From positions 117,084 to 181,083 of the forward strand of contig JAOABX010000003.1 of NCBI GenBank assembly GCA_026418175.1: a stretch of DNA of 64,000 bases, in the 5' to 3' direction. Origin of the DNA: Flavobacteriales bacterium (GTDB taxonomy: Bacteria; Bacteroidota; Bacteroidia; CAIKAF01). Positions 62,983-64,000 of this stretch are shown one piece after another. Each line of letters starts with the position of its first letter. Position 1 is the first letter of the stretch. Position numbers and translations under genes: made by a program. The notes under the pieces were generated by a model. The model ran no database searches and was not told the origin of the DNA. It saw nothing but the letters and a program-made list of their open reading frames with translations.

Positions 62983-64000
62983 ATGAATCAATCTGGTAAT
63001 GAATTTAAACCTACTACGTTTTTTGAATATATTTTAACCTATCATCGTGGGACTTTTGCAACTATTTTTTTAATACCACTTAGTGTTACGTACGGTTTTT
63101 TTGAAAAGATATCCAATAGAATAAAATTTTTATTTTACAGTGCTCCTCAAGCACACAAAAAGAAAGTACAAAAAATTCAAGAACAAATTAAATTATGGGC
63201 ACAAAGTGGCTCGAATCAAAAATTATGTACGGCCCGTAGTGGATGGAAAACCATGAGCGAACTTGTACCTGCATATAAAAAAACCTCGCATTTAATTGAA
63301 TTGAATTTAGTTGATATTTTGAGTATTGATGAGGAAAAACAGACTGTAAAGGTAGAGCCGCTAGTAAATATGGGGCAAATAAGCCGGTATTTATTGAAAC
63401 GCGGTTGGACCTTGCCGGTGATACCGGAATTGGATGATTTAACGGTAGGTGGTTTAATAATGGGTTTTGGAGTTGAAGGCAGTAGCCATAAGTATGGCTT
63501 ATTTCAATACATTGTAGACTCTATGGATATAGCTACGGCTGATGGTAACATTATTCATTGTTCTGCAAACGAAAATGCTGAATTGTTTTATTCCATTCCT
63601 TGGTCACATGGAACATTGGGTTTTTTGGTGATGGCTGAATTAAAAATTATCCCGGCGACCCGTTATGTAAAATTAAAATACCAACCGTTAATTGGCAAGG
63701 ATAAAATTTTCGAAGAGTTTGAAAAAGCCAGCAGAAATACTACAGAAAATGATTTTGTAGAAATGTTAATGTATTCCAGGGAAAAAGCAGTATTGATGAC
63801 TGGTAAAAGAGTGAATGAGATACAACAAGATGGTTTCGTTAATCGTATTGGCCACTATTATAAACCTTGGTTTTACAAGCATGTAGAAACATATTTACAA
63901 AAAAATAAAAATGGAGTTGAATACATTCCATTAATTCATTATTACCACCGGCATACACGAAGTTTATTTTGGGAAATGAGTGAAATTATTCCTTTTGGTA
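62983..64000 (+). CDS. Delta(24)-sterol reductase (DHCR24/DIMINUTO/DWF1)-like FAD-dependent oxidoreductase, 3'-truncated by the window end
   Basis: ATG at 62983; open through the window end (339 codons, no stop). Long near-identical blocks to animal DHCR24 as I recall it: [104 protein letters not shown]. Not in the ORF track because no stop is reached. Confidence 0.75.
   Translation, partial: [339 protein letters not shown]

What the first reader, a model, noticed from the sequence alone, without database searches (positions are those of the whole stretch)
62983..64000. Eukaryote-like DHCR24 (delta-24 sterol reductase) homologue at the window edge
The partial ORF aligns almost gaplessly, from memory, with animal DHCR24 / plant DWF1 across the FAD-binding domain and the reductase core. 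Shared blocks include LPV(I/L)[29 protein letters not shown](F/Y)KHVE and YIPL.[9 protein letters not shown].FWE...IIPFG. That conservation is far above generic FAD_binding_4 oxidases. Sterol-modifying enzymes are rare in bacteria, known mainly from a few Bacteroidota, myxobacteria, methanotrophs and intracellular pathogens. This suggests either horizontal acquisition from a eukaryote or participation in a bacterial sterol or isoprenoid-tail reduction pathway. Neighbouring pathway genes (oxidosqualene cyclase, C-4/C-14 demethylases, DHCR7-like) would lie just beyond this window.
Basis: partly seen in the sequence, partly recalled or inferred. Interest (0 to 1): 0.75.

Follow-up and report, generated by a model that had tools for sequence, protein, structure and literature searches.

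The report
Bacterial DHCR24-type sterol side-chain reductase gene
The window ends in a real, well-conserved bacterial copy of the animal cholesterol-pathway enzyme DHCR24, but it belongs to a large and already recognised bacterial family, and here it stands alone rather than beside other sterol genes.

Summary
An ORF starting at ATG 62983 runs off the window end (339 codons).

The window comes from an NCBI Flavobacteriales MAG. The full product is MCX7743385.1, 532 aa, annotated only as "FAD-binding protein".

The gene is not an oddity:
- About 1,700 cluster representatives and at least 135 species genomes carry close homologues, mostly Methylococcales plus several Bacteroidota orders.
- In methanotrophs the homologue sits among OSC, squalene epoxidase, CYP51, SdmA/SdmB-like and MMPL genes. 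Published lipid data link its presence to C-24 saturation.
- In two Bacteroidota MAGs it abuts OSC.

In this lineage the gene is solitary. There is no sterol gene in the 63 kb upstream, and none in the 10 kb downstream of syntenic relatives, where a two-component system follows instead. The gene is under strong purifying selection (dN/dS about 0.04) and has host-like GC.

Most likely it is a membrane-anchored FAD-dependent delta-24 sterol reductase serving a dispersed sterol pathway. I could not determine whether this genome has an OSC. Verdict: a new member of a known kind, of moderate-to-low interest.

The parts
62983..64000 (+). 5' 1,018 nt (339 of 532 codons) of a DHCR24-type delta-24 sterol reductase gene. 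The product is MCX7743385.1, annotated 'FAD-binding protein', from a Flavobacteriales MAG.
   Evidence: Translation. 52% identity to human DHCR24. Identical to P0136 over 339 aa.
63046..63138 (+). N-terminal hydrophobic helix (residues about 22-52), the presumed membrane anchor. It aligns with the human DHCR24 hydrophobic segment at about 32-52. The extra roughly 9-residue human N-terminal leader is absent.
   Evidence: Alignment offset. The top Kyte-Doolittle windows start at residues 17-25, with a score of 1.3 against 2.0 in human. The AlphaFold model of the 94% relative has a helix at 22-52.
63166..63564 (+). FAD-binding PCMH/VAO-type domain (residues 62-194), including the [18 protein letters not shown]...SSHKYGLFQ core at nt 63412-63528.
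   Evidence: Pfam PF01565, E = 1.8e-16, profile positions 7-139 of 139. These are invariant columns in 42 bacterial homologues.
63688..63999 (+). Start of the substrate (cap) domain, with the DHCR24-specific blocks [11 protein letters not shown] and [18 protein letters not shown]..IIPFG. The rest of the domain lies beyond the window.
   Evidence: Alignment to human DHCR24. Invariant columns H322 R323 H324 T325 R326 F329 W330.
62919..62949 (+). Intrinsic-terminator-like hairpin plus T-run ending the upstream T9SS-cargo gene. It makes the reductase gene a separate transcription unit.
   Evidence: Terminator scan: 1 found against 0.1 expected.
62949..62956 (+). TATTTTTG, which matches the Bacteroidetes -7 promoter consensus TAnnTTTG, 27 nt upstream of the ATG. 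This is a putative promoter element.
   Evidence: Read directly from the sequence. The consensus comes from my own knowledge of Bacteroidetes promoters and was not tested statistically.

Best explanation
The ORF encodes a bacterial orthologue of the eukaryotic delta-24 sterol reductase DHCR24. It is a two-domain VAO/PCMH-fold flavoprotein held at the cytoplasmic membrane by one N-terminal hydrophobic helix. By homology, reduced FAD (recharged by NAD(P)H) delivers hydride to the C24=C25 double bond of a sterol side chain, turning lanosterol/cycloartenol-type or later delta-24 sterols into side-chain-saturated sterols. In this Flavobacteriales lineage it is a stand-alone transcription unit. It most likely serves a dispersed sterol pathway whose SQS-SE-OSC core lies elsewhere in the genome.

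Shown: family membership, conservation, selection, and genomic linkage to sterol genes in relatives. Inferred: the enzymatic reaction, the substrate, and the presence of an OSC in this genome.
For: - Similarity to DHCR24: 52% identity over 326 aa, and 49% over 503 aa for a 94% relative, in collinear alignments to verified human DHCR24. Of six residues I recall from memory as mutated in desmosterolosis (a list I did not check against a source), four are identical (R94, N294, K306, Y471) and E191 becomes D.
- Domain and fold: the Pfam FAD_binding_4 domain is complete. The model has pLDDT 84 and pTM 0.85, with a VAO fold closest to DprE1, GLDH and cytokinin oxidase.
- Linkage in non-Bacteroidota loci: among the 63 such loci (nearly all Methylococcales/Gammaproteobacteria) the homologue lies within 10 kb of Rieske SdmA-like genes (26 loci), SdmB-like NAD-dependent genes (25), OSC (11), CYP51-ferredoxin (11), squalene epoxidase (9) and MMPL/BstA-like genes (8).
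- Linkage in Bacteroidota: OSC abuts the homologue in MAGs L035 and L060, and in L060 HMG-CoA synthase follows it.
- Literature: the M. capsulatus homologue fits its C-24-saturated sterols (PMC2817430). Methylosarcina lacus lacks the gene and does not saturate C-24, while M. luteus has it and makes only saturated side chains (PMC4919349).
- Selection: dN/dS is 0.035-0.041 at dS about 1 across four independent assemblies of the same genus.
- OSC in the wider group: many Bacteroidota MAGs carry OSC, and three loci inspected show SQS-SE-OSC clusters. The nearest non-congeneric PGK hit (74% identity) appears to share a 1.41-Mb contig with one such cluster.
Against: - There is no sterol or isoprenoid gene in the 63 kb upstream, or in the 10 kb downstream of syntenic relatives.
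- Most Bacteroidota loci (about 14 of 16 GTDB loci, plus P0004, P0009 and P0013) show the gene alone among housekeeping genes.
- I could not find an OSC assignable to this MAG or to its samples.
- No bacterial DHCR24 homologue was found to have been assayed biochemically in the papers read; the evidence there is correlative.
- The N-terminal helix is less hydrophobic than the human one.
Confidence: 0.62

Rival explanations
1. The enzyme chemistry is the same, but the substrates are exogenous. The bacterium lacks OSC and uses the reductase to remodel delta-24 sterols (desmosterol, cycloartenol, fucosterol-type) taken up from algae, protists or detritus, either for its own membranes or as a first step in processing them.
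For: The gene is solitary in most Bacteroidota loci and in this window. No OSC could be tied to this lineage. The window is rich in T9SS-secreted proteins typical of particle- or biomass-associated Flavobacteriales. Bacteria that modify host sterols without making them are known, although they use non-homologous ERG4-type reductases (PMC2817430).
Against: Every context that is informative links the family to de novo synthesis genes. No sterol uptake or catabolic genes lie nearby. The absence of an OSC in the genome is not shown.
Confidence: 0.2
2. The protein is a DHCR24-fold reductase that has been recruited to a non-sterol isoprenoid. It would saturate a terminal isopropylidene double bond of, for example, a polyprenol, squalene-derived, hopanoid or carotenoid-like lipid.
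For: The sterol context is missing here. The chemistry (reduction of a trisubstituted terminal isoprene double bond) is generic. One of the six recalled disease positions (R103) is L in this protein.
Against: About 50% identity to the animal enzyme runs along the whole length, with the substrate-domain blocks invariant in 42 bacterial homologues. The nearest bacterial relatives with an informative context are all sterol-linked.
Confidence: 0.1
3. It is an artefact: eukaryotic DNA mis-assembled or mis-binned into a bacterial contig, or a decaying pseudogene from a recent transfer.
For: The similarity to animal DHCR24 is very high, and the gene sits at the window edge.
Against: The same gene in the same synteny appears in at least five independent assemblies from NCBI, JGI, ENA and Logan. 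The frame is intact with no introns. GC is 33.7% against 36.1% for the window. A Bacteroidetes-type promoter box is present. dN/dS is about 0.04.
Confidence: 0.01

Closest known systems
Human DHCR24 (seladin-1, UniProt Q15392) and animal orthologues
   Same: 49-52% identity across the full length, collinear. It shares the FAD-binding PCMH domain, the hydrophobic N-terminal segment and the HYYHRHTRS / YYKPWF blocks. Four of the six recalled desmosterolosis positions are identical.
   Different: It lacks the first roughly 9 residues of the human N-terminal leader and has a weaker hydrophobic helix. It is a prokaryotic gene with a Bacteroidetes-style promoter, and there is no ER. Substrate and activity are untested.
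DHCR24 homologues of Methylococcales (e.g. Methylococcus capsulatus, Methylobacter luteus MetluDRAFT_1263)
   Same: 55-61% identity, with the same length and architecture. Their presence correlates with C-24-saturated sterols (PMC4919349, PMC2817430).
   Different: In methanotrophs the gene lies in or near the OSC/SE/CYP51/SdmAB/Bst sterol cluster (PMC10942540). Here it is isolated and followed by a convergent two-component system.
Plant DWF1/DIM (Arabidopsis Q39085)
   Same: The same family and fold, aligning along the whole length (sequence verified).
   Different: Only 35% identity, less than human against Arabidopsis (42%). From my own knowledge, the plant enzyme isomerises and reduces delta-24(28) sterols.
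ERG4-type delta-24 sterol reductases of Coxiella, and the eukaryote-derived sterol reductase gene reported in Legionella drancourtii
   Same: These are eukaryote-derived sterol reductases found in bacteria, and the Coxiella enzyme has an analogous delta-24 function.
   Different: ERG4-type reductases belong to the ERG4/ERG24/DHCR7 polytopic membrane family, which is not homologous to DHCR24 (PMC2817430). I know the Legionella case only from the title and abstract of PMC2667531 and did not check which family it belongs to. Both occur in intracellular bacteria that do not make sterols.
VAO-family flavoenzymes with solved structures (DprE1, L-galactonolactone dehydrogenase, cytokinin oxidase)
   Same: The same two-domain fold: Foldseek E about 1e-18, target-normalised TM 0.57-0.70. 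The FAD domain is detectable by sequence.
   Different: 13-16% identity, different substrates, and mostly dehydrogenase or oxidase chemistry. No DHCR24 structure appears among the PDB sequence or fold matches.

Membership tests
DHCR24/DWF1 delta-24 sterol reductase family | Full-length, collinear sequence similarity to characterised DHCR24 that clearly exceeds similarity to other FAD_binding_4 families | tested here: met
   52% identity over 326 aa, E = 2e-130. 49% over 503 aa for the 94% relative. Other families reach only E = 1e-12 to 1e-20, on the FAD domain alone.
DHCR24/DWF1 delta-24 sterol reductase family | Complete FAD-binding PCMH-type domain | tested here: met
   PF01565 covers residues 62-194, profile positions 7-139 of 139. 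The model has a VAO fold.
DHCR24/DWF1 delta-24 sterol reductase family | N-terminal membrane-anchoring hydrophobic segment | tested here: inconclusive
   A helix at 22-52 aligns with the human hydrophobic segment, but hydropathy is moderate (KD19 1.3 against 2.0). No dedicated TM predictor was available.
DHCR24/DWF1 delta-24 sterol reductase family | Conservation of residues recalled from memory as mutated in desmosterolosis (R94, R103, E191, N294, K306, Y471) | tested here: met
   Four are identical, E191 becomes D and R103 becomes L. Y471 lies beyond the window and was read from the full-length record P0136. The residue list itself was not checked against a source.
DHCR24/DWF1 delta-24 sterol reductase family | Groups with DHCR24 sequences in a phylogeny | tested here: met
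   In an NJ tree the bacterial clade is sister to human, with Arabidopsis as outgroup. Only two eukaryotes were included, so the donor lineage is not resolved.
DHCR24/DWF1 delta-24 sterol reductase family | NADPH/FAD-dependent reduction of the sterol C24=C25 bond | not testable with these tools
   This needs an enzyme assay or heterologous expression with GC-MS.
Bacterial sterol biosynthesis gene cluster (OSC, SE, CYP51, SdmA/SdmB, BstABC) | Physical linkage of the gene to OSC or other sterol genes | tested here: not met
   None in window 1-62900 or in the 10 kb downstream of syntenic L003. The feature is met in many Methylococcales loci and in Bacteroidota L035 and L060.
Bacterial sterol biosynthesis gene cluster (OSC, SE, CYP51, SdmA/SdmB, BstABC) | OSC and squalene epoxidase present somewhere in the same genome | tested here: inconclusive
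   Only 64 kb of the MAG is available. Attempts to tie an OSC to the MAG or its samples failed. A related lineage (PGK 74% identical) appears to carry SQS-SE-OSC.
ERG4/ERG24/DHCR7 sterol reductase family (Coxiella-type) | Polytopic membrane protein with an ERG4_ERG24 domain | tested here: not met
   The only Pfam hit is FAD_binding_4. The fold is a soluble two-domain flavoprotein with one N-terminal helix.

The most novel reading that the evidence does not exclude
A free-living, uncultured Flavobacteriales lineage keeps a stand-alone, eukaryote-derived DHCR24 under strong selection without any linked sterol synthesis genes. If the genome truly lacks OSC, this would be a sterol-salvage and remodelling enzyme in an environmental, non-pathogenic bacterium. 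If the genome has OSC, it would be the first sign that Bacteroidota make side-chain-saturated sterols, which would widen the bacterial sources of sterane biomarkers.
Probability: 0.2. Interest if true: 0.55.

Novelty: new member of a known kind. Interest (0 to 1): 0.33.

Why it matters
Bacterial sterol modification bears on how sterane biomarkers are read and on how the eukaryotic sterol pathway evolved.

The survey shows that the DHCR24 family is much wider in bacteria than the few cases discussed in the literature I could search. It occurs in several Bacteroidota orders as well as in methanotrophs. NCBI labels these proteins only as "FAD-binding protein". That points to unrecognised capacity for side-chain-saturated sterols in uncultured Bacteroidota.

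For this particular window, however, the gene is one more member of that family. It comes with no new architecture and no linked pathway.

Tried and rejected
1. Exact look-up of the upstream 262-aa protein and of P0136 in the contig index, to read the contig beyond the window. Neither is on record. Syntenic relatives were used instead.
2. Searching for an OSC from the same MAG:
   - An OSC homologue search gave 3,587 hits.
   - A cluster-member look-up of ten NCBI-sourced OSCs, to match accession prefixes (MCX77...), returned no accessions.
   - I picked AT-rich OSC candidates by amino-acid composition and looked up their contigs. All came from unrelated samples.
   - A metagenome scan with the OSC of the nearest related lineage found no contig from sample 3300038964. 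That scan only finds sequences sharing exact 8-residue peptides, so it is not evidence of absence.
3. The window ORF at 24124-25149 clustered with SdmB-like proteins, but only at 27% identity. I rejected this as generic SDR similarity.
4. The "EBP" neighbour in L005 and L022 matches the EXPERA superfamily. It has no pairwise similarity to human EBP, whose sequence I recalled from memory and did not verify, so I do not call it a delta8-delta7 isomerase.
5. The supplementary tables of PMC10202945 held no occurrence of DHCR24 or of Bacteroidota taxon names in the text available.
7. Literature searches found no paper that reports DHCR24 homologues in Bacteroidota.

Full report
**What is in the sequence**

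- An ATG at 62983 opens a + strand frame that stays open to the last full codon of the window, giving 339 codons.
- A hairpin plus T-run at 62919-62949 ends the upstream gene, which encodes a 262-aa T9SS cargo protein. The scan found 1 terminator against 0.1 expected.
- The octamer TATTTTTG at 62949-62956 fits the Bacteroidetes -7 promoter consensus TAnnTTTG. I read this by eye, and the consensus comes from my own knowledge.
- The ORF therefore looks like its own transcription unit.
- Its GC content (33.7%) is close to that of the window as a whole (36.1%).

**Checking the claimed similarity**

- I recalled the human DHCR24 sequence from memory. An exact-sequence look-up returned it as DHC24_HUMAN / NP_055577.1.
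- BLASTP of the fragment against it gives 52% identity, 73% positives, two gaps over 326 residues and E = 2e-130.
- Pfam sees only a complete FAD_binding_4 domain at residues 62-194.
- NCBIfam and PDB sequence searches return other VAO-family enzymes (sugar-lactone oxidases, DprE1, cytokinin dehydrogenases). These match the FAD domain only and score far below their family cut-offs.

**Source and full-length product**

- Exact look-ups of several window proteins return consecutive NCBI accessions MCX7743351 to MCX7743383. They come from a MAG named "Flavobacteriales bacterium" (locus tag N2167_) on a 188,025-bp contig.
- The DHCR24-like product is MCX7743385.1, 532 aa, annotated "FAD-binding protein". 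It is identical to the window fragment over all 339 residues.
- JGI annotates a 90%-cluster member as "delta24-sterol reductase".
- A 94%-identical relative aligns with human DHCR24 over 503 residues at 49% identity.
- Of six positions I recall from memory as mutated in human desmosterolosis (a list I did not check against a source), R94, N294, K306 and Y471 are identical, E191 becomes D and R103 becomes L.
- An AlphaFold model of that relative, built from 42 homologues (pLDDT 84, pTM 0.85), shows a long N-terminal helix at residues 22-52 and a two-domain VAO fold.
- The closest solved structures are DprE1, L-galactonolactone dehydrogenase and cytokinin oxidase, at 13-16% identity. No DHCR24 structure appears among the PDB matches.

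**How common the family is**

- The protein search returns 1,695 cluster representatives. The top 120 are 58-66% identical and 520-555 aa long. They come from Flavobacteriales, Chitinophagales, other Bacteroidota and, above all, Methylococcales.
- A motif scan of one genome per GTDB species finds 135 relatives. The best 80 comprise about 16 Bacteroidota MAGs (Flavobacteriales, Crocinitomicaceae, Chitinophagales, Saprospirales), with the rest mostly Methylococcales.
- The family is thus widespread. Bacterial DHCR24 homologues have been in the literature since 2009.
- Desmond and Gribaldo found one in Methylococcus capsulatus that branches with metazoans and choanoflagellates, and they noted that it fits that organism's C-24-saturated sterols (PMC2817430).
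- Wei et al. showed that Methylosarcina lacus, which lacks the gene, does not saturate C-24, whereas Methylobacter luteus has it and makes only saturated side chains. In their table the two Bacteroidetes examined had only SE and OSC (PMC4919349).
- Hoshino and Gaucher infer that DHCR24 arose within eukaryotes (PMC8237579).
- I found no paper in the searchable library that reports the family in Bacteroidota.

**Genomic context in relatives**

I called ORFs in 86 loci plus the window, clustered the neighbours, and annotated the recurrent clusters.

| Neighbour within 10 kb | Non-Bacteroidota loci (of 63, nearly all Methylococcales/Gammaproteobacteria) |
|---|---|
| Rieske oxygenase, SdmA-like | 26 |
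| NAD-dependent epimerase / 3-beta-HSD protein, SdmB-like | 25 |
| OSC | 11 |
| CYP51-ferredoxin fusion | 11 |
| Squalene epoxidase | 9 |
| MMPL transporter, BstA-like | 8 |

- This matches the published methanotroph sterol operon (PMC10942540).
- In Bacteroidota, OSC sits directly next to the gene in L035. In L060, OSC, the DHCR24-like gene and HMG-CoA synthase lie head to tail.
- Four loci (L005, L006, L022, L023) have an EXPERA/EBP-superfamily protein two genes upstream.
- Most other Bacteroidota loci show a solitary gene among housekeeping genes.

**Context in this lineage**

- Pfam scans of all 48 substantial ORFs in the window show a typical Bacteroidota chromosome: GldH, many T9SS cargo proteins, PGK, TyrRS, PBP1a and so on. 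None is an OSC, SE, SQS, CYP51, Rieske or EXPERA gene.
- tblastn with those proteins from related loci finds nothing. The one exception is a generic 27% SDR match at 24124-24894.
- Syntenic contigs of the same genus show what follows the gene. In L003, L004 and L007 it is a convergent OmpR-type response regulator overlapping the 3' end, then a histidine kinase. In L003, which extends further, a DUF7948 T9SS protein, a ROK kinase, an MFS transporter and a HAD hydrolase follow.
- In L007, DNA homology with the window begins only at 62941. This places a synteny breakpoint immediately 5' of the gene.

**Is the gene functional and native?**

- Against four independent assemblies of the genus, nucleotide identity is about 85%, dS is about 1.0-1.2 and dN/dS is 0.035-0.041. 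This is strong purifying selection over a long time.
- Together with the host-like GC and the conserved synteny in NCBI, JGI, ENA and Logan assemblies, this rules out contamination, mis-assembly and recent-transfer decay.
- I built a neighbour-joining tree from 84 bacterial sequences plus human DHCR24 and Arabidopsis DWF1. The Arabidopsis sequence was also recalled from memory and then verified as exact.
- The tree puts all bacterial sequences in one clade, sister to human, with Arabidopsis outside.
- Identities are 49% (window against human), 35% (window against Arabidopsis) and 42% (human against Arabidopsis).
- This agrees with an old transfer from a non-plant eukaryote followed by spread among bacteria. 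With only two eukaryotes and a distance method, it does not prove direction.

**Does this genome make sterols?**

- This is the main open point, and I could not settle it.
- OSC homologues are abundant in Bacteroidota MAGs. Three loci I inspected show SQS-SE-OSC clusters, sometimes with polyprenyl synthase and mevalonate-pathway genes.
- The closest PGK outside the genus (74% identity) has a longest contig of 1,411,954 bp. One of the OSC hits has the same longest-contig length and overlapping (JGI and ENA) sources, and its locus carries a full SQS-SE-OSC-mevalonate cluster.
- That suggests, by inference only, that the nearest related lineage makes sterols.
- Attempts to tie an OSC to this MAG or its samples all failed.

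**Verdict**

- The feature is a genuine DHCR24-type delta-24 sterol reductase gene, one member of a large bacterial family already linked to sterol side-chain saturation.
- Its most likely role is saturating the side chain of the cell's own sterols in a dispersed pathway (confidence about 0.6).
- The alternatives are remodelling of exogenous sterols (about 0.2) and a shift to another isoprenoid substrate (about 0.1).
- It is a new member of a known kind. The modest novelty is the breadth of the family in Bacteroidota, where it is unreported in the searchable literature and generically annotated at NCBI.

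Noticed in passing
window 1421-3013 (+): A 531-aa protein with both domains of a copper type II ascorbate-dependent monooxygenase (PHM/DBH-like, PF01082 plus PF03712) fused to a T9SS C-terminal sorting domain. This is another enzyme family best known from animals, apparently secreted by this Flavobacteriales MAG.
   Followed up: no
window 25280-27262 (+): A 661-aa protein with multihaem cytochrome c signatures (Cytochrome_C7, MtrC/MtrF domain) and a T9SS sorting tail. 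It is possibly a secreted or surface multihaem cytochrome in a Bacteroidota.
   Followed up: no
window 9802-11158 (-): An adjacent 4'-phosphopantetheinyl transferase and type II thioesterase, with no PKS or NRPS gene in the window.
   Followed up: no
window 62941 vs L007:9959: The 96%-identical relative L007 (GTDB representative CALEWF010000191.1) shares DNA homology with the window only from 62941 onward. Its upstream genes are entirely different. This puts a synteny breakpoint exactly in the terminator/promoter spacer 5' of the reductase gene.
   Followed up: partly
L005:7639-8148, L006:1387-1896, L022:5684-6190, and L023 (Flavobacteriales/Bacteroidia MAGs): A 169-aa EXPERA/EBP-superfamily membrane protein (PF05241, E = 3e-18) lies two genes upstream of the DHCR24-like gene in four loci. 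It has no pairwise similarity to human EBP, whose sequence I recalled from memory and did not verify. It may be a bacterial sterol-binding or isomerase-like protein.
   Followed up: partly
L060:240-5698 (Chitinophagaceae MAG CAYOYI010000281.1): OSC (812 aa), the DHCR24-like gene and HMG-CoA synthase lie head to tail on one strand, with the OSC and reductase ORFs abutting or overlapping. This is an operon-like sterol/mevalonate module in Bacteroidota. Its reductase is closest (65-66%) to the Methylococcales sequences.
   Followed up: partly
L078 (Competibacteraceae MAG CAZUXM010000049.1): Its DHCR24-like protein nests with the Flavobacteriales sequences L079 and L083 in the NJ tree, not with other Gammaproteobacteria. 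This is either inter-phylum transfer or mis-binning.
   Followed up: no
L094/L095 (JGI 3300020156 Ga0196970_1000001, 1.41 Mb; ENA k141_69729): A large Bacteroidota-like contig with SQS-SE divergent from OSC, followed by polyprenyl synthase, a GHMP kinase, diphosphomevalonate decarboxylase, a geranylgeranyl-reductase-like flavoprotein and HMG-CoA reductase. This is a compact sterol plus mevalonate supercluster. It has the same longest-contig length as the contig of the window's nearest non-congeneric PGK hit.
   Followed up: partly
L003:11580-13576, L004:6091-7019, L007:11583-13578 (beyond the window end): In the window's genus, an OmpR-type response regulator gene overlaps the 3' end of the reductase gene by about 14-20 nt in convergent orientation and is followed by its histidine kinase. 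Two-component genes also flank the homologue in L009, L076 and L035. No functional link is established.
   Followed up: no
L067 (NZ_CP194902.1): The record title calls a 5.3-Mb Methylocaldum replicon 'plasmid unnamed'. This is probably a labelling error in the source record.
   Followed up: no
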